Below the pieces are notes generated by a model. It saw only the letters and a program-made list of their open reading frames with translations, made no database searches and was not told the DNA's origin. DNA of 64,000 bases from an uncultured Candidatus Saccharibacteria bacterium (GTDB taxonomy: Bacteria; Patescibacteriota; Minisyncoccia; Phycocordibacterales; UBA2100), in assembly GCA_964362175.1 (NCBI GenBank), contig CAYIDD010000001.1:569-64568 (forward strand). Reading direction: 5' to 3'. This document shows, piece by piece, positions 6,201-53,728 of the stretch. The position numbers and the translations under genes were made by a program. Each line of letters begins with the position of its first letter. Position 1 is the stretch's first letter.

Positions 6201-6942
6201 CGTTGGTGATGGTACAGGTCGCGACATCGCCGCCTGCGAGAGTAATCGAATTACCGGAGACCGGCGCATCGGCGTTTTTGACACAGCTGTATTGACTTGC
6301 CGTGTAGCCTGTAGGCCCGCCGCTCTCTGAAAGGGTGTAGGAACCGGCATTTACCGTCATATTGGTGACCGCAGCGCTGTTGTGGACTCCGGAAATCGGT
6401 GTAGGACCAGATGCAGAAAGCGTCCAGTCGGTCGTAGTTGCAGTTCCGCTGTTGTCGTTGATAACCGTCTTCTTAAGAGTCAACTGCGGAGGAAGAGTGA
6501 ATGAGCACGTTTGAGCAATCGACGATTCATGCCCACTCACCTGTCCATGGTAGAGTTTTGCGGAAATCGACGCTGGCGAGGTGGTTCCAAGGTTCATCTG
6601 ATTCGACCACGTGCCAGCCATATTTTTCGGGTGCTCGGTGCTGGTCGTGGCGATAAACGTATCCGGTGCATCTTTCGAACTTAGATCAAAAAGTACGGTT
6701 GATGGTGAGTAAACCGAAACGTCATACTGAGTCGACAGTCCCGAGTAATCATATGCGTGCCAAATTCCGGACAAGTTCCATAGCGAACCACTGATAGACA
6801 CATTGCCGCATGAAATCATGTACTCGGGTGCCGCAAAGGCAGTCGAGGGGGCCGCCAGAAACGGAACGACCATGAGCATTGTGACAACAACGGAACCCGC
6901 CTTGCCGAGCAAGGAATTCTTAAGTGAGGAGTTGATATTCAT
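3286..6942 (-). CDS. giant cell-surface protein: signal peptide, 8 tandem ~95-aa Ig-like repeats (C..C TITNDD motif), one DUF11-like repeat, Gly-rich linker, C-terminal peptidoglycan-binding (PG_binding_1-like) domain
   Basis: 1218 aa single ORF. Repeated ...C-x-V/I-TN-D/N-D...TL..K motifs. C-terminus CGLYMDKHLRIGSRKNDAEQARKLQEFLNKH...GFYGPMTEAVIRRFQ matches the PG-binding domain pattern. Confidence 0.8.
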   Translation of the reverse strand: MNINSSLKNSLLGKAGSVVVTMLMVVPFLAAPSTAFAAPEYMISCGNVSISGSLWNLSGIWHAYDYSGLSTQYDVSVYSPSTVLFDLSSKDAPDTFIATTSTEHPKNMAGTWSNQMNLGTTSPASISAKLYHGQVSGHESSIAQTCSFTLPPQLTLKKTVINDNSGTATTTDWTLSASGPTPISGVHNSAAVTNMTVNAGSYTLSESGGPTGYTASQYSCVKNADAPVSGNSITLAGGDVATCTITNDDDVPTTATLTLQKTVVTDNGGTAVETAWTLSASGPTPISGIEDSASVTNAVVNPGSYNLSESGPPGYSASDWVCTGTGTQNDADTVTLVAGQSATCTITNDDNAPSLTLIKQMGEIVYRGISEAVDWTLTAVGSLGSPTNLSGTTPVTSDSTFKADTYTLGESGPLGYNASGWVCTGNATPISGANLAIGLGESVTCTITNSDKQPGTLRIIKLVQNDNAGEFSGTATSSDFTLSVTGGNPDPSSVVGTDSSPGASVTIDGGASYSVTETDGPSGYGVSYSADCDAVMPEGGEKTCTVTNNDTPSTQGYLTIRKHVTNDNGGGALASAWTLFANATQLSDGVATLLAPNTYTISEDGGPAGDYEPTSIMCSTDGGSAVKTSSIAVEAGHSYVCTITNDDIRPTLILEKIVVKDDGGQALPEDWTVTATGDQESPTIISGNGTAQGTANFQTGTYSLSESDGPAGYTPDGTWSCVVNGGSPILSNSVTLGLADTAICSITNDDQPGTLIIQKTVINNNGGTNTASNFFFHVGDGSAIAFNETADDDGNALTGENTVTVDAGDYEVIENSAAGYGTTLGADCSGTIANGETKTCAITNNDGQATLHIVKYVGEGNPDATFDFNLEGGNEFSTSTSVTTTEGDGSATISIDAGTYNLQEVSPAGWTLSEASCNNESGLLDGDTIYSVDVAAGDNITCTFYNNATGFDITTSKSVDDNTPDAGQNVTFTLTLSNAGPAEAFNLVTQDVLPVGLSYVSDNGAGAYATSSGTWFISSLPAASSTSLQIVATVTAGAGQTVTNTATTTSDGSTNDYNGDNDDGSVSITVNTPIVTPPPSGGGGGGSHFNNPIFGGGTVLGTSTGQVLGASCGLYMDKHLRIGSRKNDAEQARKLQEFLNKHMSANLPVTGFYGPMTEAVIRRFQAQYSDSILSPWGIASPTGLVYLSTLRQVNLLECPQLTLPIPNLIPWSQNPNAQ
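3970..6500 (-). repeat. intragenic tandem domain repeats (~280 nt unit, 8 copies) inside the surface protein gene
   Basis: recurrent CTITNDD / CTVTNND / CSITNDD / CAITNND motifs at ~95-aa spacing in the translation. Boundaries approximate. Confidence 0.55.
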
Positions 6943-7256: not shown

Positions 7257-7585
7257 TGCAGAATCCGCAAGCTCAAAGGGAGATGCTATTCATCAGTGCC
7301 GCCCGCGCATCTGTTGCGCATGCGGCCGACGATACGACCCACCCGACCCCGTTGAATACGCACGAAACGGCGTTGGTGGAAGCTTGGAACCGGGACCAGA
7401 TCGCCGTGTACGAAGCGGTGAGCGCGATGGTCACTCTGGCCACGCGGGGATCCGGACAAGCACATCCCAACGTCATGGAAGACGCCTGGGATATCGTCTC
7501 CAGCGAGTGGGGAGGATCGCGTCCGATCTGGACGTGTCTCGAGCTCCGGAGGCTCTTTCGCTTGAGGGGTCTTGAGCCGAGTTGA
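7257..7585 (+). CDS. hypothetical protein (~109 aa)
   Basis: ORF with plausible TTGACC..TATAAA promoter at 7178-7205, followed by a hairpin plus T-tract at 7613-7645. Confidence 0.35.
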
Positions 7586-7612
7586 CGGCATTCCAAACCG
7601 GAGCAACGCAAC

Positions 7613-7645
7613 GGGGCCGCCTGCGCAGGCGGCCTCTCATTTTAC
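7613..7645 (+). terminator. intrinsic terminator (GC stem + TCTCATTTTA)
   Basis: ggccgcctg cg caggcggcc perfect 9-bp stem followed by a T-rich tract. Confidence 0.5.
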
Positions 7646-7653
7646 AGGGATCC

Positions 7654-8184
7654 TTAGCGGCGGCGCACGAATAACATCAGAATGAGAAGGAACGCGAAGA
7701 CCGAGATGGCCATCATGGGATACGTGATGTAGCCGAATTCAAGAAAGAGGATCTTGGCGCAGCTTATCTCCCCTTGCGATGGGCACGGCAGTGAGCCCAT
7801 GGGATACATCTGTAAGACGTGGTGGTAGATGGCGATCCCCAGACCCACGACGGATAGCATTATCGAGTAATCCGCGATAGCGCGATCGCGTTTCCAGAGA
7901 GCGAGCGCGAAGAGAATAACTTGCGGATACAGAAAGGCGCGCTGCCACCAACACAACGGGCACGGCGGCAGGCCGAAGATGCCCGAATGGATGAGGGTCA
8001 CGCTGCTTCCGACGACTGAGACGAAAAGCCCGATCCAAAGGCCCCACCGCGAGAGAAATCCCGCCACATCCTCAAGGTCGGGGATCTTATTGCGCAAAAA
8101 GTACAGCGCAAGAAATGCCGCGCCCGCTATTTGCATTGCCACTGTTCCGAGGGCCAGCCAGTAATTGAACACCTCTATCGGCAT
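7654..8184 (-). CDS. dsbB: disulfide bond formation protein B (DsbB/BdbC family)
   Basis: four TM helices. PCPLCWWQR motif and a second Cys pair (CPSQGEISC). Start at MPIEVFNYW; the upstream extension in the ORF track is judged spurious. Confidence 0.65.
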   Translation of the reverse strand: MPIEVFNYWLALGTVAMQIAGAAFLALYFLRNKIPDLEDVAGFLSRWGLWIGLFVSVVGSSVTLIHSGIFGLPPCPLCWWQRAFLYPQVILFALALWKRDRAIADYSIMLSVVGLGIAIYHHVLQMYPMGSLPCPSQGEISCAKILFLEFGYITYPMMAISVFAFLLILMLFVRRR

Positions 8185-24143: not shown

Positions 24144-24212
24144 AGGCGCATGATAGCTCACGGACGCGCTCCGTCCAGACGAAGATGTGCATAGATGCGA
24201 AGGACAAGAGGA

Positions 24213-24236
24213 CACGCTTTCTCCCACACAAAGCGG
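24213..24236. repeat. 24-bp direct repeat, left copy (att-like), cacgctttctcccacacaaagcgg
   Basis: identical to 25952-25975, which abuts the 3' end of tRNA-Ser. Confidence 0.8.
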
Positions 24237-24339
24237 GCCGTCCGCAGTTCGAACTTTTAGAGATTAGCTACTTGCAACAAGTTATCCACTAACACAAAAC
24301 CGCCTACGGTGAATAGGCGGCTTGTGTCCTAAGTGACGA

Positions 24340-24504
24340 TTAACGACCACCCAAAATCCCACTGGGCTGTCTCGGTTCTTCGGGCTTTCCTCCCTTGTCC
24401 AACTCTCTTAATCGCTTCTCAACCTCCTCCAAACGCTGTGATATACGGGTGATTACCGCATTCACATGCGCATACAAACTCTCAACCGTGTCTGGTACTT
24501 TCAT
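24340..24504 (-). CDS. mini-ORF (54 aa, coiled-coil-like) inside AT-rich islet segment
   Basis: MKVPDTVESLYAHVNAVITRISQRLEEVEKRLRELDKGGKPEEPRQPSGILGGR. Divergent from a 48-aa ORF 26 nt away. Not in the ORF track (<60 aa). Confidence 0.25.
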   Translation of the reverse strand: MKVPDTVESLYAHVNAVITRISQRLEEVEKRLRELDKGGKPEEPRQPSGILGGR

Positions 24505-24530
24505 AATTACTCTTTCTAATTAACTCGACA

Positions 24531-24677
24531 ATGAATAAATCTACAAAGAAGTCTAAAATATCCTCTATTAGAGCCGATGTTAAGGCCTTACGAAAGGATT
24601 TTAAACTTCTCGCATCCCTCCTTGAACGTCTGTGTCAACTAACGGGGGCTAGTAGGGCCGAACTCGCGAAGATGTGA
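24531..24677 (+). CDS. mini-ORF (48 aa) ending in HTH-like LTGASRAELAKM (possible truncated Xre/excisionase-like regulator)
   Basis: MNKSTKKSKISSIRADVKALRKDFKLLASLLERLCQLTGASRAELAKM. Divergent partner of the 54-aa ORF. Confidence 0.25.
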   Translation: MNKSTKKSKISSIRADVKALRKDFKLLASLLERLCQLTGASRAELAKM

Positions 24678-24822
24678 ACTTACTTAAAAGGGGGTTACTA
24701 ATAATTAGTGTCCACAGTATACTACAATAACTTGTTGCAGGTATATAGGCTCTGAACTTTTGACATCAAGCACCGTAAGGGTTCTTTAGTAAGTTCCAGG
24801 GCGACTTGCCGAGGTGTCCGCA

Positions 24823-25767
24823 TCACGAGGCCTTATTTGCACCTTCAAGCTCTTCTTGTTTACTTCGGGCGTAACGATTTAACTCTTGACCTTGATCACT
24901 CAAGTAACCGGCCGTTGAAAAAGCACGCCATATTTTGCCTCGAGCTTCATTCATTTCTTTTAACGTTTGAGCGGTATCGAAAGTGTGTCTGAAGATACCG
25001 TACTCCTTATCCGTAGCGGTTTTTTGCAACTCTCTTCCTTGATAGGACAGACTGCCACCAGGGGTTACGCACAACTGCCATATCTTTGCCTTGATTTTTT
25101 CTAAACCATCAACGGTATTCTCTTCCTCTATCTGTTTTGAGAATATGCCAGCCATATGTTCGTTAGCTGCATGGTACACAATGTCCACAACCGATGAAAC
25201 AATCCGATAGTCGCTATGAATTACTTGATGTATCAGTTCCTTATATTGGTTTCTTAGACTGTCGATCTCTTCGACTGCTTTGATATTGCTAAAACCTTTC
25301 GCAAAAACCGATTTTATTTTCGATTCGAGCACGTCTGCAAGTTGTTTCTCGTTAAATTCGCCTTTGTCGTGCTTACCATACTTTTCATCATTCAAATCTT
25401 TCCGAAGCTTTAAAAGTTCTTCTATATTTTGCGCTGACTGTATTCGTTCGTTCCATGGTCGACTGTCTTTCTCTTCTCGTGGCGGCCATCTACGCTCGGG
25501 CTCACGTAACTGACCAGGAATATATTGTGCTCGCTTTTCGGGATCCTTGAGAGTGGCGTAGGCTTCCGAAACCAATTTCATTTTCTCGGCGTCTCCCCCA
25601 CTTTCCGAGTCGGGATGAAGGTTTTTTGAGATCGTTCTGAAAGCGACAGCAATTTCGGTCTGCGACGCATCGGACGCAACACCGAGTCTCGCATAAAAAT
25701 CAGCAGTAGCTTCGATATGCGGGGTCAAACGATTTTGCTTCGAACTTGGCTCGACCCGCTCTTTCAT
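24823..25767 (-). CDS. J-domain (DnaJ N-terminal domain) protein, no Zn-finger/CTD; low-GC, likely horizontally acquired
   Basis: DFYARLGV..EIAVAFRTISKNLHPDSE..KLVSEAYATLKDPEKRAQY with HPD tripeptide. The rest is a Lys/Glu-rich helical region with no recognisable domain. Confidence 0.6.
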   Translation of the reverse strand: MKERVEPSSKQNRLTPHIEATADFYARLGVASDASQTEIAVAFRTISKNLHPDSESGGDAEKMKLVSEAYATLKDPEKRAQYIPGQLREPERRWPPREEKDSRPWNERIQSAQNIEELLKLRKDLNDEKYGKHDKGEFNEKQLADVLESKIKSVFAKGFSNIKAVEEIDSLRNQYKELIHQVIHSDYRIVSSVVDIVYHAANEHMAGIFSKQIEEENTVDGLEKIKAKIWQLCVTPGGSLSYQGRELQKTATDKEYGIFRHTFDTAQTLKEMNEARGKIWRAFSTAGYLSDQGQELNRYARSKQEELEGANKAS

Positions 25768-25864
25768 GGCTAAACTATAACACTATCCGCAAAAGCTTCT
25801 TGAAGCCATCGACAACGCATCGAAACCATAGGCGTCCGCATACCTCCGATACTTCTTTCTTCGG

Positions 25865-25896
25865 GCGGAGGCGGAGAGATTCGAACTCTCGGTGCC
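25865..25896 (-). pseudogene. tRNA-Ser 3'-end fragment (32 nt, T-arm + acceptor 3' strand), duplicated att remnant
   Basis: gcggaggcggagagattcgaactctcggtgcc is identical to 25972-26003 of the intact tRNA-Ser. No 5' half is present. Confidence 0.7.
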
Positions 25897-25951
25897 CTCC
25901 CGATTTCTTCAAGCTCGCTTGATTAGAAATCGCAGTTCTTTAGGGTTGCGG

Positions 25952-25975
25952 CACGCTTTCTCCCACACAAAGCGG
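25952..25975. repeat. 24-bp direct repeat, right copy, overlapping tRNA-Ser 3' end
   Basis: cacgctttctcccacacaaagcgg; the last 3 nt are the tRNA discriminator region. Confidence 0.8.
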
Positions 25976-26057
25976 AGGCGGAGAGATTCGAACTCTCGGT
26001 GCCTTGCGGCACACACGCTTTCCAAGCGTGCGCACTAGACCACTATGCGACGCCTCC
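25973..26057 (-). tRNA. tRNA-Ser (GGA)
   Basis: acceptor GGAGGCG/CGCCTCC, 3-bp D-stem, anticodon stem CACGC/GCGTG with loop TTGGAAA, long variable arm TGCCGCAAGGCA, T-loop TTCGAAT. Confidence 0.8.
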
Positions 26058-27641: not shown

Positions 27642-28202
27642 TTAGAAGCTCACCTTGACGGGATTGCGCGCGGCCTCCTCCCCTTCCGCAAGCTGGAAGA
27701 ACTCGCGCGTCTTGAAGCCGAACGTGGAGCCGATGATGTTCGAGGGGAATTGCTCTATTGCGTTTTGGAGCTCTTGCACCACAGAGTTGTAGAAGCGACG
27801 TGCTGCCTGTATCTTGTTCTCGGTATCAGAAAGCTCACGCTGAAGCTCGACGAAATTGGTATTTGCCTTCAGGTCCGGATACGCCTCGGAAACCGCGAAG
27901 AGCGATTTCAAGGCGCCCGTCAGCATGTTCTCGGCGGCCGCATGTTCCCCCACCGTCTGAGCACTCATCGCCTTCGTGCGCGCCTCCGTCACTTTCTGGA
28001 GCGTCCCCGCTTCGTGTGAAGCATAACCTTTCACGGTCTCAACGAGATTCGGAATAAGGTCGTACCGACGTTTCATCTGTACATCGATATCGGACCACGC
28101 TTCCTCTGTGCGATTCGTGAGCTGGACGAAACGATTGTAAGCCCACACCGCCCACACAACGACAGCCGCCGCAACGCCAAGAATGATGTAAGAAATATCC
28201 AT
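27642..28202 (-). CDS. lemA: LemA family protein
   Basis: N-terminal TM helix plus a conserved LemA core (RYDLIPNLV ... AYPDLKAN); conserved pairing with htpX. Confidence 0.85.
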   Translation of the reverse strand: MDISYIILGVAAAVVVWAVWAYNRFVQLTNRTEEAWSDIDVQMKRRYDLIPNLVETVKGYASHEAGTLQKVTEARTKAMSAQTVGEHAAAENMLTGALKSLFAVSEAYPDLKANTNFVELQRELSDTENKIQAARRFYNSVVQELQNAIEQFPSNIIGSTFGFKTREFFQLAEGEEAARNPVKVSF

Positions 28203-28217
28203 ACGGCCATTATACCA

Positions 28218-31200
28218 CTACTGTATCTCCTTACGCAAAAGCTGGAGCAGCTGCAGATTTTGCGCTGCCGACCCCCTGTAGTTTGTGATGCCATAACTCG
28301 CTGCCAGTTGGGCACGACTGGCATAATCACTTGGCTGCCCTGCGGCCTTGAGGAAGTTGATGATCGAGTCGCCTTTGTAATTCTGCGCCGTGGCGTACAG
28401 ATTTTCTGCGGTAGGTTGAGAGTACGGAAGCGGTACGGGAAGACCTTTGGTCTGCAACGCATCCAGCATCTGAATGTTACATGTCGCAGTCCCGACACTG
28501 CACGTGAGCCCCATTTCCTGAGCGAGTTTCCTGCGCGAACTGAGGTCGGAAGACAGGCCATTTTCCTCAAGACAATTGACGATGGAGGAATTTGAGCACG
28601 ACACCTGAAATGGCGACTTCGTCGAAGGCTCAACGACTTGCCCTCCAACTCCCGATTCCCCCGCGTCAGAACTCGGGATTGTATTGGGTTCAACCGATAC
28701 TGGCTCACCGCTCGCAAGCCTGAAGCCGGAGTCTGGAAGATCAGATTTAGATTCAGCGACGACTTCCCTGAAAATTTCTTCCCAATCGGTCTCGGCCGCC
28801 GGACCCGGCATGGGCAGACGCGCGTCAAGTTCGGCATCAGTGGGTGCCGACGCAACAATGGGGGCGTTTCCTGCTGACGCGCCAAAGCCGAAAAATTCCT
28901 TGGTTCCCTCCCAGATCTCCAGAGCATATTCCCGCCAACCCTTGTTTGTCTCCGGGGCGATGGCCGTAGTCGGTGAATCACGAACTACAGAATCTGCCAC
29001 CTCCTGCGCAGCCTCACTTGAGACAGGCTCCGTGGACTCAGGTCCACCGATGGCCGCAAAACCTGGCACGACTTCGCCCCACACGGTGTGCGGAATTGGG
29101 GCTCCCGTCTCCAGATGGGCGACAAGCTCAGGGACCGGCAGAGGATACGAAGCCGAGACATACGACGTAAAACCTTCGAGACCTCCCAAACTTTGGGAAG
29201 AAAGATTCGGGGGAACAGGCGCGGAAGCGGTGAGGGTCGCCTCGGTCCCACGTAATGTGTTGATCGACTGCGCGAGAACAGAGATCTCCGTTCCCAGCCG
29301 CGCGTAGTTACTCTGCAGACCAGGAAGCGAATTCACGCTTGGGTCTGTCGTACCGAGAACCTTGGCGGATGCTAAAAGCGTGTTGCCCGCCTGTATCGCA
29401 TCGTTCGCTGCCGATAAACTTCGAACGGAGGCAAGATGATCGAGCTTTGCAACATAGCCGTTAATGCTATTCGCGAGATCGGTTTCTCCCATTTGCCGAG
29501 CGAGTCCTGCCAGGCTTTTGGCCGCATTCCTACCCTCAACCATCGTCGCCACGCCTTTCTCGTCTGGTATTTGTAGTTTGCGCAATTCCGCAAGACCTGC
29601 CTGCGCTTTTGCGAGGAGAGTTCTGGCCTGTGCTGAGTTATTTTTCAATTTCTGAAGTTCTGCTATTTGTTTCTTCAGAGCATCTCTTTTAATCTCGATT
29701 TCCTGCTTCGCTTTTTCCGCATCAGCCAACTGGCCTCTCGTCTCTTCGAGTTCCTGCTGTCGATTCGCGTCTTCAACTTCCCCGGACTCTGCGGTTTTGG
29801 TGTCAGCTGCCGTACCCTCGTCGGATCCCCCAAGTTTCGCAAGCTGTTCTTGCCTAAGCCGCTCTTCCTGCGCCACCACCTCGGCTTTTGCCGCTGCCTG
29901 ATCGAACGGCTCGGCTGGAGGCGGCATCGGAATTCGCGCTTCAAGTTCGGTATCGGAGGGTGTCGGTTGCTCGGTCTGCACCTGCTGGGTCTCGGGGTTG
30001 GCGTCGGTCAAAGAACTGGTATTTAGATTCGACGCGTATTGGCGGAGAGCCTCATTGTCATCGCTCTTGTTCGTCCATACTGATGGTGCTTCTTCCAGAG
30101 GCGCGCTTGGTTGTTCCCCGCCTGTTCCGAGAGATTTACCGATATCTTGGAGCCACTTGCGCACGGTGCCCAATACCTGCCCCGTCTTGTCCGCAAAGGA
30201 TTCAGCGAATGTCTTTTCGGAAGTAGCCGGTGGTTGTTCGGGGATCGGCGTAACGTCGGGACCAGTTTCAGCGGGGCTCTCTGTGGTCGGGAGTTGCGAG
30301 GGACCCTGCGCGACCGGAGATGATATTGTTCCCGGTTGGTCTGGCGCGACCACCGATGATCCATTTGCCAACCGGAAACTTTCCGTTTGCGCTTTTTGTA
30401 TGGCATCCCCGAGGGAATCTTGCGCAGATTCGGGTGGAACATACACCGCACGACCATTGGAATCGTAGAGTGTCAAACCACCGTCCCGATCGATCTGAAA
30501 TCGCTCGGAGTCTCCGATCTTCCCCGATGTACTCTTCAAGTCCGATACGGATTGGTCGAGTGGTAGTGGCTGGTCGGACGGAAGCTGCCGGAAACCGATG
30601 ATGTCACTTGTGGGAACGCTCGGTTGAGCGGCAAGTTCGATCGGCGGAGTGTCGGGTGGGGATGTCTCGCCGTATCCAAAGAGAGATTTGATGGAATTAA
30701 TTCCCGACTCCACTCCCGATGTGACAGCCGACTTTGCGATGTCCCACGCCACCGCATACGGAGACGAAGACGGCGGAGGGGGGGCCGGAGGATTTGCCGC
30801 GCGTTCGGCGGCGGAAGCTTCATTCTGCATATCGAGCCGTACCTGCGTTTCTGCGATAGAACGCGCGATTTCCTGCCTGAACGCTGGTTCGGAGGCATAT
30901 TCCGGATTTTTCTCAAGGATTTTTTCATACACGCGCCGGTCGAATTCCGTCAACTTCTCGGTAAACGGCGGCGCTTCTCCAGACACATACACTTGAGAAA
31001 CGGGAGCTGGCTCCGCAGAGGTCACGGAAACGGGTTCGGCAGGCGGAGAGGCAGGTGCAGATGTGAGAACAAATCCCCCCGATCCGGCGGAGGAATCAGT
31101 AGGTTCTGCTGATCGGCTACCATTCGACGCGAGAGTGAACGAAGAATCCGCTCTTAACGACTGTGCTTGCGCCAAACCTTCACTCCACGCATTCCCGCGG

Positions 31201-32438
31201 GACACAAGTTCCACCTGCATTTGGCTCCGGTTCACCTCCTGGTAAGTGCCTAAGTTTTCGGCAATGGCTGGGGTAATATCGATCCCCTTTCCGCAGGATG
31301 GACAGTGGTCTCCAACTACTCCGTAGGTAGACAAACCGGTGTTGGGATTGGTAATCATTACGACATCGCCAAACCTCAATCCTGATGAGTTACCAGCCGC
31401 TATCACAGGTAGGTCTCGATCTATATAGTTACTGCGACTTCCAACGCGCGGCCCCTCTATTCCAGGTGAACAGCCAGGGTCCACAGCTACGCTGCAACCT
31501 CCAGGATAATATAGGGTCGCCCTCAGATTAGGTATGTTCCCCGCCTCGGCGTCGCCACCAAACTCTTTTGCCACTCTGCCCCACGTATTCGCGACAACTT
31601 GTTTTGTGGCCTCCCATGCCTTTGCGACTGAACAAAACCAGCCATCGCACGATTTCGTCTCCGCAGCATTTTGGTCGAATCCGGTGGAATCGGATGACAC
31701 ATTCTCTGTTTGCGGTTTTCCGAACGTATCGAGATTGCCGTAATAGTTCGGGTTTAGATTTCCCTCAGCATCGAACGGCTGGGCGGATGCGTTCCCCGGT
31801 GAAAACAATTGCCCCGTATCGTTACCCACCGTTTGTGTTGACGGCAAAGTATCGGTAAGAGATCCTCTCCCGTCATCGCCTGGCAAAATTCCCCACCGCT
31901 GCAACGTCGCCTCCCAAATACTCTTTCCCGGTCCGATCTCCGACGCGCTGTCAGCGCCCGTAAGAGCATCGAAAGCCCCCTTCAAGCGCTCGCTCCAGGT
32001 CAGCAATCGCTCAGGTTCCGGTGTTTCCGGAGACACACCAGCTTCGCTTACCAGCGGCTGTGACCCGTCTGAGAGTGTGGGTTTCGTCGCTTCGCTCACC
32101 TGTCTTCCCTCGCAGTCCGTAGTGGCCCTGCACTCACCGATCGCTTTACACTCCCCCTCTATCTCCTTTCTGGGACATGATGTCGTGTCCTTGCATACAC
32201 AGTCCTTACCGCCTATCGCAATAACATTTCCGTCTTTGTCTTTCTTTATCTCGTCGCATTGGAGACTGTAATCAACAGGTTTCCCATTTTTTTCGGACGT
32301 GCAGCTTAAGTTTGCAGTGACGTTGGCATCCTGCGCATGTAAAGCGAGGGGTAAAAATAGAAGGACGAGAGAAGTCGTCGCAATTGCGAACATAGACGAA
32401 ACAACCGTGCGAGTGCGGCACGTCATGTGTCCTTTCAT
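28218..32438 (-). CDS. giant secreted Cys-rich multidomain protein: signal peptide, Cys-rich N-module, RlpA-like DPBB domain, Pro-rich linkers, long coiled coil, C-terminal paired ~45-aa repeats
   Basis: 1406 aa. GLRFGDVVMITNPNTGLSTYGVVGDHCPSCGKGIDITPAIAENLG resembles an RlpA-type double-psi beta-barrel. ~250-aa heptad-rich region. The C-terminal repeats (SIVNCLEENGLSSDLSSRRKLAQEMGL / SIINFLKAAGQPSDYASRAQLAASYGI) are a motif I do not recognise. Confidence 0.8.
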   Translation of the reverse strand: MKGHMTCRTRTVVSSMFAIATTSLVLLFLPLALHAQDANVTANLSCTSEKNGKPVDYSLQCDEIKKDKDGNVIAIGGKDCVCKDTTSCPRKEIEGECKAIGECRATTDCEGRQVSEATKPTLSDGSQPLVSEAGVSPETPEPERLLTWSERLKGAFDALTGADSASEIGPGKSIWEATLQRWGILPGDDGRGSLTDTLPSTQTVGNDTGQLFSPGNASAQPFDAEGNLNPNYYGNLDTFGKPQTENVSSDSTGFDQNAAETKSCDGWFCSVAKAWEATKQVVANTWGRVAKEFGGDAEAGNIPNLRATLYYPGGCSVAVDPGCSPGIEGPRVGSRSNYIDRDLPVIAAGNSSGLRFGDVVMITNPNTGLSTYGVVGDHCPSCGKGIDITPAIAENLGTYQEVNRSQMQVELVSRGNAWSEGLAQAQSLRADSSFTLASNGSRSAEPTDSSAGSGGFVLTSAPASPPAEPVSVTSAEPAPVSQVYVSGEAPPFTEKLTEFDRRVYEKILEKNPEYASEPAFRQEIARSIAETQVRLDMQNEASAAERAANPPAPPPPSSSPYAVAWDIAKSAVTSGVESGINSIKSLFGYGETSPPDTPPIELAAQPSVPTSDIIGFRQLPSDQPLPLDQSVSDLKSTSGKIGDSERFQIDRDGGLTLYDSNGRAVYVPPESAQDSLGDAIQKAQTESFRLANGSSVVAPDQPGTISSPVAQGPSQLPTTESPAETGPDVTPIPEQPPATSEKTFAESFADKTGQVLGTVRKWLQDIGKSLGTGGEQPSAPLEEAPSVWTNKSDDNEALRQYASNLNTSSLTDANPETQQVQTEQPTPSDTELEARIPMPPPAEPFDQAAAKAEVVAQEERLRQEQLAKLGGSDEGTAADTKTAESGEVEDANRQQELEETRGQLADAEKAKQEIEIKRDALKKQIAELQKLKNNSAQARTLLAKAQAGLAELRKLQIPDEKGVATMVEGRNAAKSLAGLARQMGETDLANSINGYVAKLDHLASVRSLSAANDAIQAGNTLLASAKVLGTTDPSVNSLPGLQSNYARLGTEISVLAQSINTLRGTEATLTASAPVPPNLSSQSLGGLEGFTSYVSASYPLPVPELVAHLETGAPIPHTVWGEVVPGFAAIGGPESTEPVSSEAAQEVADSVVRDSPTTAIAPETNKGWREYALEIWEGTKEFFGFGASAGNAPIVASAPTDAELDARLPMPGPAAETDWEEIFREVVAESKSDLPDSGFRLASGEPVSVEPNTIPSSDAGESGVGGQVVEPSTKSPFQVSCSNSSIVNCLEENGLSSDLSSRRKLAQEMGLTCSVGTATCNIQMLDALQTKGLPVPLPYSQPTAENLYATAQNYKGDSIINFLKAAGQPSDYASRAQLAASYGITNYRGSAAQNLQLLQLLRKEIQ

Positions 32439-42893: not shown

Positions 42894-43579
42894 GTAAGAT
42901 ATTTATTCTTCACGGATGGACATATCAGACCGAGACGTGGCGATCTCTGCGTGAGATGCTTAAAGAGCGCGGATTGGAGGCCGAATTCCTCCTTATTCCC
43001 GGACTCACCGACGGCACAAATCCGATCTGGACCCTCGACGACTATGTCGAGTGGCTGAGGAGCAGAACTGCGGAATACGGGAAAGTTATTCTCATCGGAC
43101 ATTCCAATGGCGGTCGCATCTCGCTCGCGTTCGCCGAAAAGTATCCGGAAAAAGTCGAACGGCTCATCCTTGAAGACAGCGCCGGCATCCCCGCGATGGG
43201 ATTACGCGCCCTCAAGCGTGATGTATTCAAGGTAATCGCGAAAATCGGAGGTGCGGTCACCAAGTCTGAAGTACTGAGAAAAGTCCTGCACAAAGTCGCC
43301 CGAGAGAGCGACTACCAAAGGGCAACCCCCGAGATGCGCCGCACGATGGCGAATTTGGGATCCGTCGATCTCGGTCCGATCTTTCAGCGGATCAAGGCCC
43401 CCACGCTCATCATATGGGGGGAAAAGGACACCACGACACCGCTTGCAAGTGGAAAAATAATGCACGAAAAGATACGCGGCTCACGGATGGTCGTGATCGA
43501 AGGCGCGCGCCACTCGCCGCACATAACACACACAAAAGAGGTTGCCGACCTCATCACGGAAGAACTTACGCGTCCATGA
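42890..43579 (+). CDS. alpha/beta hydrolase
   Basis: GHSNGG nucleophile elbow, C-terminal His. Start overlaps the upstream stop (ATGA). Confidence 0.7.
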   Translation: MSKIFILHGWTYQTETWRSLREMLKERGLEAEFLLIPGLTDGTNPIWTLDDYVEWLRSRTAEYGKVILIGHSNGGRISLAFAEKYPEKVERLILEDSAGIPAMGLRALKRDVFKVIAKIGGAVTKSEVLRKVLHKVARESDYQRATPEMRRTMANLGSVDLGPIFQRIKAPTLIIWGEKDTTTPLASGKIMHEKIRGSRMVVIEGARHSPHITHTKEVADLITEELTRP

Positions 43580-45798
43580 ATATTTTCAACTCCCTCGGCT
43601 CAAATTACACGCTCTCTTCCGCAATACGGATACTGTTCTCAACGGGTGATACTAGCGCGCAGCAAAAATTGATCGAGTATCTCGAAGCGCGTTACGGCCT
43701 GCCCGGCCAAGGGGGACGAGCGATTCTTACATATAAAGGCCGCGAAGCACTTTTTCTCGCGATTGCGGCACTTCCTCAGGGCGCTATCGCCATCAACGGC
43801 TTTACCTGCCTCGCCGTATACGAGGCGATAACCGAAAATGGACGCGCGGTGCACTACATTGACGTCCCGGAAAACAATCTGAATTTCACGCCCGCATCTT
43901 TCCAGGCCGCGCTCGTGTCGAACCCCGCGATCAAAGCCGTTATCGTTCAGAACACACTCGGTATTCCCTGTGACATACAAACGATCAGATCACTCTGTGA
44001 ACGGCACGGAGTCGCCCTCATCGAAGATCTCGCACACTCTATCGGTACCCGATACTCCACCGGCGAAGAGGCGGGTACTGTTGGAGACTTCGTTGTCCTT
44101 TCGTTCAGTCAGGATAAAGTCGTTGATGCGGTTTCGGGAGGGGCACTCATTATCCGTAACAAAAAGTACGTGGACGCTGTCATTTCTGCGGAGCATGTAC
44201 CAAGCTTGGGTCAGCAACTAAAAGACCGTTTCTATCCGGTACTGACGTGGAAGATCAGGGTCGCGTATGCGCTCGGTATCGGAAAGGCGCTGCATGCGCT
44301 CTTCCGCTCCCTCCATCTCCTTTCCACACCGTTCGGGAAGATGGCAGCGAACGATGCGCATGCATTACCGGGGTGGTATTGCGACATCATTCTGCAGCAA
44401 TACACAGTTCTCGAAAAAACAGCGGCACACCGACGGGAGATCGCGCACATATACGCACAGTACGTGGACAAACGACTGCAGATCCCTGCTGATCTCCAAC
44501 GCTCGACCAATGTGCGATTCCCCCTCCTCGCAAACAATCGCGCAAGCCTGATCAGATTTCTGAAAAAAGACGGTGTTCACGTGAGCGACATTTGGTACGA
44601 CGCCCCCATAGCGCCTAAAAAATATCTGCGCCGTACGGATTACAAGGGGCAGTGTCCCCACGCGGAGCACATTTCAGAAATGATGGTGAACCTGCCGACT
44701 CACATTAATGTCTCTCCGATACACGCACGGACCATTGCCGAATCGGTCAACAAGTGGCTCGTTGAAGGAACGAGCGAATATAGCGTTACGGCCGTCGCTG
44801 ATGAAAATGTGTGGGAAAAATACCTCCGCGCGCAAAAGCCGCACAGTTTTCTGCATGCGTGGAAATGGGGACAACACTACGAGCTTTCCGGATCCAAAAT
44901 ATTCCGCCTTGGCGTTTACCGAGGCGAGACCCTGGTGGCTATTGCTCTCCTCATAAAGATAGAGGCACGCCGCGGCTCCTTCCTTCTGTGCCCGCATGGT
45001 CCGATCGTCGCCGACATCGCACACGAAGAGCCCGTACTACGGGTACTCACCGAGCACTGCGGGCAAATTGCGAAAGATGAGATGTGTGCCTTCATTCGCT
45101 TCTGCCCGCTCGCAAAACCGACCCCAGAAAACGTTATGATATATCATAATTTAGGGTTTCGAAGTGCGCCCATCCATATGCATCCTGAGTTGGCGTGGAT
45201 GTTGGATATCACAAAGCCCGAAGACGAGTTGCTAAAAGCGATGCGAAAAACGACGCGCTACCTCGTGAAAAGAATGGAGAAAGAAGGGGTGGAGGTCGTG
45301 CAGAGCGTTAACCCCGCAGACATTGAAAAGTTTTGGCCAGTCTACGAGGCAACGGTGGAGCGCCAACAATTCATGCCGTTCAGCAAATCCTACCTACAAA
45401 AAGAATTCGAGCTATTCGCCAAAGATAACCAAGCTGCATTCTTTTTCGGAACATATCGAGGCGAGATAATTGCCGCTGCCATTATCATTTTCTACAACGG
45501 GCAGGCGTTTTACCACCACAGTGGTTCTATACAGAAATTCGATGACATTAACGCTTCGTACCTTTTGCAGTGGCGCGTCATACAAGAAGCGAAACGTCGT
45601 GGCTGTACGCTCTACAACTTCTGGGGCATCTCCCCCACCGACCGTCCGCGCCACCCATGGGCCGGCCTTTCACTATTCAAAAAAGGCTTCGGCGGCTTCG
45701 CGGAAAAATACCTCCATGCGCAAGATAAACCCCTTACTGCAAAATATGCGCTCAACTACGTTGTCGAGACCGCCCGACGCTTCCGTCGCGGCTTATAA
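43576..45798 (+). CDS. fusion protein: DegT/DnrJ/EryC1-type PLP-dependent sugar aminotransferase (N) + FemAB-family aminoacyl/acyl transferase (C)
   Basis: the N-terminal half carries HYIDV..N..P..KAVIVQNTLG..D...I..L..RHGVALIEDLAHS ... SFSQDK (PLP lysine). The C-terminal half carries FemAB-like FYHHSGS..QW..I..A...G...YNFWG and KGFGG motifs. Start overlaps the upstream stop. Confidence 0.65.
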   Translation: MNIFNSLGSNYTLSSAIRILFSTGDTSAQQKLIEYLEARYGLPGQGGRAILTYKGREALFLAIAALPQGAIAINGFTCLAVYEAITENGRAVHYIDVPENNLNFTPASFQAALVSNPAIKAVIVQNTLGIPCDIQTIRSLCERHGVALIEDLAHSIGTRYSTGEEAGTVGDFVVLSFSQDKVVDAVSGGALIIRNKKYVDAVISAEHVPSLGQQLKDRFYPVLTWKIRVAYALGIGKALHALFRSLHLLSTPFGKMAANDAHALPGWYCDIILQQYTVLEKTAAHRREIAHIYAQYVDKRLQIPADLQRSTNVRFPLLANNRASLIRFLKKDGVHVSDIWYDAPIAPKKYLRRTDYKGQCPHAEHISEMMVNLPTHINVSPIHARTIAESVNKWLVEGTSEYSVTAVADENVWEKYLRAQKPHSFLHAWKWGQHYELSGSKIFRLGVYRGETLVAIALLIKIEARRGSFLLCPHGPIVADIAHEEPVLRVLTEHCGQIAKDEMCAFIRFCPLAKPTPENVMIYHNLGFRSAPIHMHPELAWMLDITKPEDELLKAMRKTTRYLVKRMEKEGVEVVQSVNPADIEKFWPVYEATVERQQFMPFSKSYLQKEFELFAKDNQAAFFFGTYRGEIIAAAIIIFYNGQAFYHHSGSIQKFDDINASYLLQWRVIQEAKRRGCTLYNFWGISPTDRPRHPWAGLSLFKKGFGGFAEKYLHAQDKPLTAKYALNYVVETARRFRRGL

Positions 45799-51593: not shown

Positions 51594-51760
51594 ACGAACA
51601 CGGCAAGAATCTGACAAAAGTTGTCCGGGAGAACTTCGACTTCCGTCCGCGCGCCATTCAAGACCGCCTCGGCCTCCGCAAACCCATCTTCCGCGAAACC
51701 GCCGCCTACGGTCACTTCGGTGTGAGCGGTAGACCTTGGGAAAAAATAATCAAGATCTAA
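51594..51760 (+). pseudogene. metK 3'-terminal fragment (last 55 codons), diverged copy (~87% nt identity to resident metK 50479-50645)
   Basis: encodes DEHGKNLTKVVRENFDFRPRAIQDRLGLRKPIFRETAAYGHFGVSGRPWEKIIKI. Joined to the glmS fragment at a tcgNcgaac microhomology. Confidence 0.85.
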
Positions 51761-53439: not shown

Positions 53440-53465
53440 TATACTCCGGGCTATACTGGAGCACA

Positions 53466-53728
53466 TGGACCTCCTTGAACAACGTGTGCAGAAAATCGAG
53501 CAACGGAACAACTCCGTGGAGATGGATAAGGCTTGGGAAACAAGCTGGACGAGGACAGGGCTCGTCGCCGCATTCACCTACATAACGATGGGTGTTTTTC
53601 TATCATTCATCGACGTCACACGACCGTGGCTCTCGGCGACTGTGCCAACGTTGGGCTTTGTTCTCTCAACGCTCTCGATGCCGTATTTCAAGCGCGCGTG
53701 GGGCCGGAAACGAACTATTCTACGGTAA
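53466..53728 (+). CDS. possible small two-TM membrane protein (87 aa)
   Basis: MDLLEQRVQKIEQRNNSVEMDKAWETSWTRTGLVAAFTYITMGVFLSFIDVTRPWLSATVPTLGFVLSTLSMPYFKRAWGRKRTILR. Overlaps the glmS stop. Confidence 0.25.

What the first reader, a model, noticed from the sequence alone, without database searches (positions are those of the whole stretch)
24823..25767. Stand-alone J-domain protein on the tRNA-Ser islet
This 314-aa protein has a canonical J domain with an HPD motif at its N-terminus. The rest is a Lys/Glu-rich helical region with no Gly/Phe linker, zinc finger or DnaJ C-terminal domains. The gene is low-GC relative to the flanking chromosome. Orphan J-domain proteins on mobile DNA are plausible hijackers of host DnaK, as known for phage and plasmid J-proteins. 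In a reduced-genome organism with a single groESL locus, an acquired Hsp70 co-chaperone is notable.
Basis: partly seen in the sequence, partly recalled or inferred. Interest (0 to 1): 0.55.

Follow-up and report, generated by a model that had tools for sequence, protein, structure and literature searches.

The report
Acquired J-domain co-chaperone beside tRNA-Ser
A groundwater Kaiserbacteria (CPR) genome carries, on a 1.7-kb foreign insert without an integrase at the end of a tRNA-Ser gene, an intact Hsp70 (DnaK) co-chaperone gene with a one-of-a-kind tail; it is a real but fairly ordinary kind of acquired gene whose target is unknown.

Summary
ORF 24823-25767 (minus strand, 314 aa) encodes an N-terminal J domain with an intact HPD motif. 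It has no G/F linker, zinc finger or DnaJ C-terminal domain.

The all-helical tail (residues ~105-314) has no detectable sequence or fold relative anywhere searched.

The gene lies in the lowest-GC stretch of the window, on a ~1.74-1.78 kb insert that starts exactly at the 3' end of tRNA-Ser(GGA). The insert is bounded by perfect 24-nt direct repeats and holds an extra perfect 32-nt copy of the tRNA 3' end. It has no integrase. Related Kaiserbacteria species have either an empty site or unrelated cargo there, and none has a J gene.

The N-terminal extension plus J domain defines a small clade found only in uncultured-organism metagenome assemblies, apparently CPR (58-73% identity). Four of its lineages, counting this one, abut tRNA or tmRNA 3' ends, and most have low GC3. 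A distant homologue is an ordinary operon gene.

Most likely this is a functional class-C J-domain protein acquired on an integrative element. It would recruit host DnaK to an unknown partner.

"Mobile DNA" is supported. "Hijacker" and "phage or plasmid origin" are not shown. Host dnaK could not be checked directly.

The parts
24823..25767 (-). Gene for the 314-aa stand-alone (class C) J-domain protein
   Evidence: ORF. The same gene was called on 5 contigs of Hainich groundwater assemblies. GC3 is 0.419, the lowest of 53 ORFs.
25702..25767 (-). N-terminal extension (residues 1-22, MKE..QNRLTPHIEA), shared with the clade P0001/P0011-13/P0097
   Evidence: Alignment A2; P0097 sequence.
25522..25701 (-). 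J domain (residues 23-82) with HPD at residues 51-53
   Evidence: Pfam PF00226, E 2e-16. PDB J domains match. Across the clade dN is 0.20-0.25 with saturated dS, and dN/dS is 0.04-0.06 where it can be computed.
25456..25521 (-). Charged, Pro-containing linker (residues 83-104), with no Gly/Phe-rich region. The motif REP..ERR..PPR..ERIQ is shared with P0001.
24826..25455 (-). Orphan all-helical C-terminal domain (residues 105-314). Residues 217-314 are a tandem internal duplication of about 50 aa.
   Evidence: No hit in 5.8e9 clustered proteins or in 1.84e9 representatives. No Pfam, PHROG, PADLOC or NCBIfam hit. Foldseek against PDB and BFVD gave nothing with E <= 0.001. hhalign against the clade's repeat domain gave probability 0.05. 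AF2 pLDDT is 80-95 for residues 200-314. R3 against R4 alignment has z = 9 over shuffles.
25774..25782 (-). Extended -10 box TGTTATAGT, 6 nt before the ATG, giving a predicted leaderless transcript
   Evidence: Read from the sequence. The same TGnTATA(G/A)T-N6-start arrangement occurs in all six clade lineages. TAnnnT-N5-8-start is also common among host genes, 25 of 53 ORFs.
25972..26057 (-). tRNA-Ser(GGA), the insertion target
   Evidence: ARAGORN; Rfam tRNA, 57 bits. It has its own promoter-like site at 26094-26067 and the upstream gene's terminator at 26125-26102.
25952..25975 (-). Direct repeat DR2, copy a (attL-like): the last 4 nt of the tRNA plus 20 nt of flank
   Evidence: Perfect 24-nt repeat, spacing 1739 nt.
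24213..24236 (-). Direct repeat DR2, copy b (attR-like)
   Evidence: It is followed by 16 nt and then by the sequence that directly follows the tRNA in relatives L012 and L010.
25865..25896 (-). Perfect 32-nt copy of the tRNA-Ser 3' end (variable arm to 3' end), 75 nt downstream of the tRNA and 97 nt upstream of the J gene
   Evidence: family D1.
24233..24257 (-). Degenerate copy resembling the tRNA 3' end (AAAGTTCGAAC...CCCGC), immediately before DR2b and in register with the tRNA T-arm
   Evidence: Alignment A4.
24197..25971 (.). The whole insert relative to the empty sites of relatives (~1775 nt). The att-bounded unit is 1739 nt.
   Evidence: GC is 0.45 against 0.54 for the window, the lowest 1.74-kb stretch.
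24340..24504 (-). Second islet ORF, 54 aa, coiled-coil-like, with no homologue or family. Whether it is a real gene is uncertain.
   Evidence: called by the gene finder on all contigs. Only sub-threshold hits in Pfam and PHROGs, none in PADLOC or NCBIfam.
24291..24322 (-). GC-rich hairpin followed by TTTTGTGTT after orf54, a likely terminator at the end of the islet
   Evidence: Read from the sequence. The consensus scan did not flag it.

Best explanation
This is an intact, horizontally acquired class-C (type III) J-domain co-chaperone gene. It arrived with a small integrative element at the 3' end of tRNA-Ser(GGA) in a groundwater Candidatus Kaiserbacteria (Patescibacteria/CPR) genome. What remains is a 1.74-kb unit bounded by att-like repeats, with no integrase and its own promoter. 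It is either a decayed island or a non-autonomous unit that could be mobilised in cis.

Mechanism. Shown: a canonical J domain with HPD, kept under strong purifying selection across its clade. Inferred: the J domain docks on ATP-bound host DnaK and triggers ATP hydrolysis. This locks DnaK onto whatever partner or site the unique helical-repeat C-terminal domain binds. The protein would then be a targeting adaptor for Hsp70, not a general folding chaperone.

The N-terminal extension and J domain are a conserved module of a small clade, and the -10-N6-start promoter layout is conserved with them. Clade genes recurrently sit next to tRNA or tmRNA 3' ends. In this protein the C-terminal targeting domain has been replaced, or has diverged beyond recognition.
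For: J domain:
- Searches give the domain match; HPD is intact.
- dN is 0.2 with saturated dS, and dN/dS is 0.04-0.06 within the clade.

Class C architecture:
- No G/F region, zinc finger or DnaJ_C domain.
- All NCBIfam DnaJ, CbpA, HscB, TopJ and ActJ models score far below their cut-offs.

Acquisition:
- The insert begins exactly at the tRNA 3' end. Relatives L012 and L010 have the tRNA directly joined to the DUF1761 promoter region.
- There are perfect 24-nt direct repeats 1739 nt apart, plus a perfect 32-nt copy of the tRNA 3' end.
- It is the lowest-GC stretch and the lowest-GC3 gene in the window.
- No J gene occurs at the locus in any of the ~80 HtpX-anchored relative loci, about 20 of which keep parts of the LemA-HtpX-tRNA-Ser-DUF1761-DUF192-RNR-MurJ order. 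Several relatives carry unrelated cargo at the same spot.

Clade:
- P0001, P0011-13 and P0097 share the N-terminal extension and J domain at 58-73% identity, against 54% or less for any DnaJ/CbpA.
- They also share the TGnTATA(G/A)T-N6-start arrangement.

Recurrent tRNA/tmRNA adjacency in the clade:
- The P0001 gene is bracketed by a 36-nt, 83%-identical repeat made of the tRNA-Ile 3' end plus flank, 1042 nt apart.
- P0011 follows three tandem tRNA-3'-end fragments.
- P0097 ends 87 nt from the 3' end of tmRNA.
- GC3 is 0.40 for the P0001 and P0097 genes, in loci of 0.51 GC.

Host partner: CPR bacteria are reported to retain DnaK/DnaJ/GrpE (PMC12641178).
Against: - No dnaK, dnaJ or grpE lies in the 81 kb of the contig that could be read, so the partner is assumed.
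- Helix II of the J domain is poor in basic residues. Only R44 and K48 remain where E. coli DnaJ has R19, R22, K23, K26, R27 and K31, and the domain pI is 5.2. DnaK binding could therefore be weak or atypical.
- There is no integrase, excisionase or any other mobility gene on the islet. No circular or empty-site variant was seen in the same population; all 5 contigs carry the islet.
- The repeat architecture (24-nt repeats plus an internal 32-nt tRNA copy) is not explained by one simple integration.
- The client of the C-terminal domain is entirely unknown.
- The AF2 model was built from a single sequence (mean pLDDT 68), and the J domain itself was modelled poorly.
- A distant homologue of the clade's repeat domain (P0098) sits in a housekeeping operon with native GC3. 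The wider family is therefore not intrinsically mobile.
Confidence: 0.6

Rival explanations
1. Element-serving 'hijacker'. The J protein is a moron-like cargo gene that works for the mobile element. It would redirect host DnaK to an element protein (replication, excision or assembly) or to a host regulator. The model is phage RB43 Rki, which binds DnaK and stabilises sigma-32.
For: The gene is located on an att-bounded insert with its own promoter. Clade members sit at the att-proximal edge next to tRNA or tmRNA genes. Two members are paired with an Xre-type HTH gene. Six PHROG families of phage proteins contain J domains. The precedent is Rki (PMC3486835).
Against: No other element gene is left on the islet to be served. 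No homologue beyond the J domain exists in 50,697 phage records, 72,556 plasmid records or 2.9 M IMG/VR contigs, even with clade-specific motifs. The PHROG hits cover only the J domain.
Confidence: 0.25
2. Neutral leftover. The gene is intact only because the insertion is recent. It has no role in this host and is on its way to decay.
For: The islet has lost, or never had, all mobility genes. The direct repeats are still perfect, so the event is probably recent. Codon usage has not adjusted toward the host's. The C-terminal domain is an orphan with no evidence of conservation.
Against: The 314-codon ORF is uninterrupted, and its host-type leaderless promoter is intact. The J module is under strong purifying selection across the clade. 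The sequence is identical in three replicate assemblies and one independent assembly, although that says nothing about selection.
Confidence: 0.2
3. A native, vertically inherited specialised co-chaperone of this Kaiserbacteria lineage. On this view the position next to tRNA-Ser and the low GC are incidental.
For: The promoter and start architecture is the same as in many host genes. A distant homologue (P0098) lies in a conserved YceG-J-MnmA operon with native GC3. CPR genomes encode other class-C J proteins (L090/L091).
Against: The gene is absent from all relatives that share the synteny. The insert is precisely bounded by repeats at the tRNA 3' end, and relatives have empty sites. It is the strongest compositional outlier in the window.
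Confidence: 0.08
4. Part of a defence or toxin-antitoxin module, formed by the J protein and the 54-aa ORF.
For: It is a two-gene islet in a variable hotspot. Islands at tRNA genes often carry defence genes (general knowledge).
Against: Neither protein has a PADLOC hit. No nuclease, toxin or NTPase domain is present. The two ORFs are 318 nt apart and probably transcribed separately.
Confidence: 0.03

Closest known systems
Class C (type III) J-domain proteins of bacteria, such as DjlA, HscB and Shewanella AtcJ
   Same: An N-terminal J domain with HPD and nothing else of DnaJ. A private C-terminal region is presumed to give client or location specificity.
   Different: The C-terminal region has no similarity to any of them. 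NCBIfam HscB and ActJ models match only the J domain and score below their cut-offs. There is no transmembrane segment (DjlA-like) and no short AtcJ-type tail.
Rki (ORF057w) of the T4-like phage RB43, the first phage-encoded functional J-domain protein (PMC3486835)
   Same: An orphan J-domain protein carried on foreign DNA, with an N-terminal J domain and an unrelated C-terminal part. It is the model for redirecting host DnaK.
   Different: Rki is encoded by a lytic phage genome, whereas this gene sits on a chromosomal islet without phage genes. No phage record matches beyond the J domain. No effect on a heat-shock regulator is known or implied here.
tRNA-associated genomic islets and cis-mobilisable elements (CIMEs): att-flanked remnants of integrative elements that lack their own recombination genes (from general knowledge of ICE/IME biology in Streptococcus)
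   Same: Inserted at the 3' end of a tRNA gene. Flanked by direct repeats that include the tRNA end. Atypical composition, absent from relatives, no integrase. The internal extra att-like copy suggests tandem accretion.
   Different: It is only 1.74 kb, and the P0001 unit is 1.04 kb. The identity block lies mostly in the 20 nt after the tRNA, not inside it. No cognate integrase or autonomous partner element has been identified, so mobilisation is not shown.
CbpA / DnaJ (class B and class A J-domain proteins)
   Same: These are the best non-clade matches of the J domain, at 48-54% identity.
   Different: It lacks the G/F region, the zinc finger and the DnaJ_C substrate-binding domains. It scores 59 bits against a 377-bit cut-off for DnaJ_bact.

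Membership tests
J-domain protein (Hsp40 superfamily, Pfam PF00226) | A J domain of about 65-70 residues matching the family profile end to end | tested here: met
   PF00226 at residues 23-82, profile positions 1-62 of 63, 60 bits against a 27.8-bit cut-off. PDB J domains match with E 1e-11.
J-domain protein (Hsp40 superfamily, Pfam PF00226) | An invariant His-Pro-Asp tripeptide between helices II and III | tested here: met
   H51-P52-D53, aligned to the HPD of solved DnaJ domains and invariant in the clade.
J-domain protein (Hsp40 superfamily, Pfam PF00226) | Stimulates the ATPase of a partner Hsp70 (DnaK) | not testable with these tools
   No dnaK lies in the 81 kb of contig available. CPR bacteria are reported to retain DnaK/DnaJ/GrpE (PMC12641178). 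Helix II has fewer basic residues than E. coli DnaJ.
Class A DnaJ (type I) | A Gly/Phe-rich linker, four CxxCxGxG zinc-finger motifs and DnaJ_C domains | tested here: not met
   No CxxC motif. The linker has 4.5% Gly and 0% Phe. No PF00684 or PF01556 hit. TIGR02349 scores 59 bits against a 377-bit cut-off.
Class B / CbpA (type II) | A G/F region plus the DnaJ_C substrate-binding domain | tested here: not met
   No PF01556 hit. NF007618 (curved DNA-binding protein) scores 36 bits against a 403-bit cut-off.
HscB / TopJ / ActJ (named class C families in NCBIfam) | A whole-protein score above the curated cut-off | tested here: not met
   All matches cover only the J domain and lie below the cut-offs.
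Clade of N-extension J proteins from uncultured-organism metagenomes, apparently CPR (P0001, P0011-13, P0097; defined here, not a published family) | The shared N-terminal extension MKE..QNR..P.IE.GAD[FY]Y.RLGV, a J domain at least 58% identical, and a TGnTATA(G/A)T-N6-start promoter | tested here: met
Clade of N-extension J proteins from uncultured-organism metagenomes, apparently CPR (P0001, P0011-13, P0097; defined here, not a published family) | A C-terminal domain of 4-5 repeats of the type K[ST]GAYF[FY]GS[FY]..W.K.GF | tested here: not met
   hhalign of the clade's repeat profile against residues 104-314 gave probability 0.05. The A3 profile search did not return this protein.
Integrated element at a tRNA gene (genomic island / CIME-like remnant) | An insertion exactly at the 3' end of a tRNA gene, with an empty site in relatives | tested here: met
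   (L012 and L010 are empty).
Integrated element at a tRNA gene (genomic island / CIME-like remnant) | Flanking direct repeats that include the tRNA 3' end | tested here: met
   A 24-nt perfect repeat (4 nt of tRNA plus 20 nt of flank), preceded at the distal copy by a degenerate T-arm copy. There is also a 32-nt perfect internal copy of the tRNA 3' end.
Integrated element at a tRNA gene (genomic island / CIME-like remnant) | Atypical base composition and codon usage | tested here: met
Integrated element at a tRNA gene (genomic island / CIME-like remnant) | Its own integrase or recombinase (needed for an autonomous island, absent by definition in a CIME) | tested here: not met
   Only two ORFs, and neither has a recombinase domain.
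Integrated element at a tRNA gene (genomic island / CIME-like remnant) | Excision or mobilisation, shown by a circular form or by empty sites in the same population | not testable with these tools
   All 5 contigs that carry the gene carry the islet.
Phage-encoded J-domain proteins (Rki-like; PHROG J families) | Encoded in a phage genome, or homologous to a phage J protein beyond the J domain | tested here: not met
   PHROG hits cover only residues 20-82. Phage tblastn covers only the J domain at 53% identity or less. IMG/VR gave no relative.

The most novel reading that the evidence does not exclude
The N-extension J-protein clade may be the signature cargo of a so-far undescribed family of very small, integrase-less units (1.0-1.7 kb) in CPR bacteria. 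These units are bounded by att-like repeats and insert at tRNA or tmRNA 3' ends. Each would carry a single leaderless gene for a J protein, with a conserved J module and a swappable C-terminal targeting domain that re-aims host DnaK. That would be the first Hsp70 co-chaperones borne on mobile elements in the Candidate Phyla Radiation. It would also be a minimal cassette that must be moved in trans by an unknown recombinase.
Probability: 0.22. Interest if true: 0.6.

Novelty: new member of a known kind. Interest (0 to 1): 0.4.

Why it matters
Class-C J proteins decide where Hsp70 acts. A co-chaperone brought in by horizontal transfer, in an organism with a very small proteostasis toolkit, would show that mobile DNA can rewire chaperone targeting even in CPR bacteria. 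Their mobile elements and host-element interactions are poorly known.

The recurrent placement of this clade next to tRNA/tmRNA 3' ends, in units as small as 1 kb, gives a concrete and testable handle on integration systems in CPR genomes. The orphan helical-repeat domain is a candidate new client-binding module.

If the gene is only a recent leftover, the finding is an ordinary genomic islet.

Tried and rejected
**C-terminal domain**
- I looked for any relative of residues 85-314. phmmer against 1.84e9 representatives gave 0 hits. It did not even return the protein's own cluster, so that library may lack it.
- The word-indexed search found only J-domain matches.
- Pfam, PHROGs, PADLOC and NCBIfam gave nothing. 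Foldseek against PDB and BFVD found only generic helical repeats, with E of 0.015 or higher.
- I tested whether the tail is a diverged version of the clade's SGAYFF repeats. hhalign gave probability 0.05, so I rejected this.

**Phage or plasmid origin**
- tblastn against INPHARED and PLSDB matched only the J domain.
- IMG/VR, searched with the protein and with the clade alignment, gave nothing.

**Host chaperones**
- I searched for dnaK, dnaJ and grpE in the window, in all fetched loci and in 10-kb extensions of the contig at both ends. None was found.
- I tried to name the nearest full-length DnaJs through their cluster members. The result was uninformative.

**Other checks**
- No Rfam family other than the tRNA is in the islet.
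- I considered the leaderless promoter as a special mark of the element. I rejected this because about half of the host ORFs show the same layout.
- I considered that the whole repeat-type J family is mobile. I rejected this because P0098 is operonic with native GC3.
- I looked for tRNA-3' repeats around the unrelated cargo in relatives. Only L035 and L039 have them.
- dN/dS for our gene against the clade could not be computed because synonymous sites are saturated.
Full report

Yes. The minus strand carries an ATG-initiated ORF at exactly 24823-25767, 314 aa.

- Pfam's DnaJ model (PF00226) matches residues 23-82 almost end to end (E 2e-16, 60 bits against a 27.8-bit cut-off).
- A search of all PDB sequences matches only residues 17-84, to solved J domains. 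These include T. thermophilus DnaJ2 and the E. coli DnaJ J domain of the DnaK complex 5NRO. The HPD tripeptide is H51-P52-D53.
- No CxxC motif is present. The linker (residues 83-104) is Arg/Glu/Pro-rich with 4.5% Gly and no Phe. No zinc-finger or DnaJ_C domain is found.
- All NCBIfam models for DnaJ, CbpA, HscB, TopJ and ActJ touch only the J domain and score far below their cut-offs, for example 59 against 377 bits for DnaJ_bact.

It is therefore a class-C (type III) J-domain protein.

The tail (residues 105-314) is 21% Lys+Glu. In a single-sequence AlphaFold model it is entirely helical, and residues ~200-314 have pLDDT 80-95. The J domain itself was poorly modelled without an alignment, and the mean pLDDT is 68. 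Residues 217-266 and 267-314 are a clear tandem duplication (alignment score 57 against 20.7 +/- 4.0 for shuffles, z = 9).

**2. Where does the window come from?**

The exact protein is encoded on five contigs from the Hainich aquifer well H43, 0.1-um fraction. One of them is a 113-kb contig of which the window is a part. The neighbouring HtpX protease has its closest relatives (up to 90% identity) in MAGs, several of which are named Candidatus Kaiserbacteria (Patescibacteria/CPR).

The local gene order is groES-groEL ... LemA-HtpX-(small ORF)-tRNA-Ser(GGA)-[islet]-DUF1761-DUF192-class II RNR-MurJ-LepA.

**3. The islet.**

The J gene has the lowest GC3 of 53 ORFs in the window (0.419 against 0.610 +/- 0.057). 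It also has the lowest codon-usage score (z = -2.9). The 1.74-kb stretch around it is the lowest-GC stretch of that length in all 64 kb.

Reading along the tRNA's strand, the layout is as follows:

| Element | Coordinates |
|---|---|
| tRNA-Ser(GGA) | 26057-25972 |
| 20-nt flank F | 25971-25952 |
| 55-nt spacer | 25951-25897 |
| Perfect 32-nt copy of the tRNA 3' end | 25896-25865 |
| 97-nt stretch holding an extended -10 box (TGTTATAGT), which ends 6 nt before the ATG | 25864-25768 |
| J gene | 25767-24823 |
| 318 nt non-coding | 24822-24505 |
| 54-aa ORF | 24504-24340 |
| Hairpin followed by a T-rich run | ~24322-24291 |
| Degenerate T-arm-like copy (AAAGTTCGAAC...CCCGC) | 24257-24233 |
| F again | 24232-24213 |
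| 16 nt | 24212-24197 |
| Promoter region of DUF1761 | from 24196 |

The last 4 nt of the tRNA plus F form a perfect 24-nt direct repeat, 1739 nt apart.

In two related species (L012, L010) the tRNA-Ser 3' end is joined directly to the sequence ATCT(A/G)T(A/G)CACA.... In the window that sequence begins only at 24196. Relative to an empty site, about 1775 nt have therefore been inserted precisely at the tRNA 3' end.

None of the ~80 HtpX-anchored loci from species-representative genomes has a J-protein match near this locus. About 20 of them keep parts of the LemA-HtpX-tRNA-Ser-DUF1761-DUF192-RNR-MurJ order. Several carry unrelated cargo between tRNA-Ser and DUF1761:
- a 719-aa membrane protein in L008;
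- a conserved ~310-aa unknown protein on the opposite strand in L014, L015 and L016;
- 4 kb in L017.

A more distant Parcubacteria (L035) has a perfect 45-nt duplicate of the tRNA-Ser 3' end. This is an insertion hotspot.

The islet itself has no integrase or other mobility gene. The simplest reading is one site-specific integration with a 24-nt crossover core, in which the distal arm carries the element's own imperfect tRNA-like sequence. The internal 32-nt tRNA copy would then be a trace of an earlier accretion or excision. I could not resolve the history further.

The unit resembles a decayed island or a cis-mobilisable element. Mobilisation is not shown.

**4. Relatives of the protein.**

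Against 5.8 billion clustered proteins, the full-length query found only J-domain matches. An exhaustive phmmer of residues 85-314 against 1.84 billion representatives found nothing. That search did not even return the protein's own cluster, so the library may lack it.

One hit stood out: P0001, 73% identical in the J domain against 54% or less for any DnaJ/CbpA. Searches with an alignment of the two, and then with the clade's C-terminal repeats, found further members:
- P0011, P0012, P0013 and P0097 share the 22-residue N-terminal extension (MKE..QNRLSP.IEAGADFYARLGV) and a J domain 58-66% identical to ours.
- P0098 is more distant.

All of these have a C-terminal domain of 4-5 repeats (K[ST]GAYF[FY]GS[FY]..W.K.GF). 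That domain is not detectably related to our tail (hhalign probability 0.05). With P0001 our protein also shares a linker motif (REP..ERR..PPR..ERIQ.A).

So the N-terminal extension, J domain and linker are a conserved module, and the C-terminal domain differs. Across the clade the J domain has dN about 0.2 with saturated dS, and dN/dS is 0.04-0.06 where it can be computed. That is strong purifying selection.

**5. Context of the clade.**

| Member | Locus | Context |
|---|---|---|
| P0001 | L089, L088, L005 | The gene starts 27 nt after tRNA-Ile(GAT). It is bracketed by a 36-nt repeat (30 of 36 identical) made of the tRNA-Ile 3' end plus 16 nt of flank, 1042 nt apart, so the J gene alone fills the unit. 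The promoter of the next gene follows. |
| P0011 | L105 | Preceded by three tandem tRNA-3'-end-like fragments with a repeated flank. |
| P0097 | L111 | Ends 87 nt from the 3' end of tmRNA (Rfam, 110 bits). Preceded by an Xre-type HTH gene. |
| P0012 | L106 | Preceded by an Xre-type HTH gene. |
| P0013 | L107-L110 | Contigs too short to judge. |

The window brings the count of clade lineages next to a tRNA or tmRNA 3' end to four.

All lineages have TGnTATA(G/A)T exactly 6 nt before the start codon. GC3 is 0.40 for the P0001 and P0097 genes, in loci of 0.51 GC.

By contrast, the distant homologue P0098 sits in a tight YceG-J-MnmA operon with native GC3. The wider repeat-type family is therefore not intrinsically mobile.

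The -10-N6-ATG layout is also common among host genes of the window (25 of 53 ORFs; examples are LemA, HisRS and MurJ). It marks the gene as adapted to CPR-type expression, not as something peculiar to the element.

**6. Phage, plasmid or defence origin?**

- tblastn against 50,697 phage records and 72,556 plasmid records matched only the J domain, at about 54% identity or less.
- IMG/VR yielded nothing significant, either with the protein or with clade-specific motifs.
- PHROGs has six J-domain-containing phage families of unknown function, but again only the J domain matches.
- PADLOC gave nothing.
- Foldseek of the model against PDB and BFVD gave only generic helical-repeat matches (best E 0.015, TM 0.3 or less).

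**7. Host partner.**

No dnaK, dnaJ or grpE lies in the window, or in 10-kb extensions of the contig on either side, 81 kb in all. [quoted passage not shown] A partner is therefore likely but unverified for this genome.

One caveat concerns helix II of this J domain. It keeps only two basic residues (R44, K48) where E. coli DnaJ has six. This is my own reading of the alignment, and its functional meaning is unknown.

**8. Interpretation.**

Shown:
- a canonical, selectively maintained J domain;
- class-C architecture;
- an orphan helical-repeat tail;
- insertion at a tRNA 3' end with perfect direct repeats;
- foreign composition;
- absence from relatives;
- membership, through the N-terminal module, of a small clade known only from uncultured-organism metagenomes (apparently CPR) that recurrently neighbours tRNA or tmRNA 3' ends.

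Inferred:
- the protein docks on host DnaK-ATP and triggers hydrolysis, so that DnaK is clamped onto whatever the tail binds;
- the gene arrived on an integrative element, of which only an att-bounded remnant is left.

Unknown:
- the client;
- whether the protein benefits the host, the element (as phage RB43 Rki does; PMC3486835) or nobody;
- which recombinase moved it.

**9. Verdict.**

The 'hijacker' and 'phage/plasmid' parts are not.

As a kind of thing it is a new member of a known class: a class-C J-domain protein on a tRNA-associated islet. Its targeting domain is unique.

The more interesting possibility is a family of minimal tRNA/tmRNA-targeting J-gene cassettes in CPR bacteria. This rests on four loci. 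It is weakened by the operonic homologue and by the absence of any identified recombinase.

Noticed in passing
window 51757-53577 (minus strand): A 606-aa ORF with no Pfam hit. It is the second-strongest compositional outlier of the window (GC 0.47, GC3 0.486, codon score z -2.0), so it may be another acquired gene.
   Followed up: partly
window, genome-wide (e.g. starts at 28202, 10922/9660, 14075, 20134, 57649, 59007): 25 of 53 long ORFs have a TAnnnT box 5-8 nt before a candidate start codon, and only 14 have a Shine-Dalgarno-like motif. Leaderless transcripts seem to be the norm in this Kaiserbacteria genome.
   Followed up: partly
window 24249-24285 and 24727-24763: An imperfect 37-nt inverted repeat (76% complementary, with a perfect 13-nt core ATAACTTGTTGCA) brackets the 54-aa ORF inside the islet. 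Its meaning is unknown.
   Followed up: no
L014 10726-11637, L015 11047-11991, L016 11818-12831 (all minus strand): Three Kaiserbacteria species carry a conserved ~303-337-aa protein of unknown function on the opposite strand. It sits in the same tRNA-Ser/DUF1761 gap that holds the J islet in the window.
   Followed up: no
L035 11913-11998 and 12117-12161: A Parcubacteria relative has a perfect 45-nt duplicate of the tRNA-Ser(GGA) 3' end 119 nt downstream of the gene. This is another footprint of integration at this tRNA.
   Followed up: partly
L089 341-422 and 786-1358: A group II intron D1-D4 match, followed by a 190-aa ORF with a LAGLIDADG-like motif, lies upstream of the tRNA-Ile that precedes the P0001 J gene.
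   Followed up: no
L090 1130-1768; L091 about 7447-7740 (runs to the contig end): A different class-C J protein (212 aa; a J domain plus three predicted membrane helices; 38% identical to ours in the J domain) lies about 1.1 kb downstream of tRNA-Lys(TTT) in two soil contigs.
   Followed up: no
L111 7440-7460 and 7608-7628: A perfect 21-nt inverted repeat lies between the tmRNA gene and smpB, next to the P0097 J gene.
   Followed up: no
L106 380-428; L107 650-707: The motif GTTGATAACGT(CGCC) occurs once or twice just upstream of the -10 box of the P0012 and P0013 J genes. In L106 it follows an Xre-type HTH gene, so it may be an operator.
   Followed up: no
window 43414-45798 (plus strand): A 794-aa protein fuses a DegT/DnrJ/EryC1 aminotransferase domain to a FemAB/GNAT domain, which is an unusual single-polypeptide combination.
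   Followed up: no
window 3286-6942 and 28218-32438 (minus strand): Two very large secreted or surface proteins: 1218 aa with eight SpaA-like repeats and a peptidoglycan-binding domain, and 1406 aa that is largely low-complexity. A 1931-aa SpaA-repeat protein lies just outside the window on the same contig.
   Followed up: no
(tool behaviour): The exhaustive search of 1.84e9 representatives returned zero hits for residues 85-314, not even the protein's own cluster, although the exact protein is in the parent collection. The negative result from that library should be read with this in mind.
   Followed up: no
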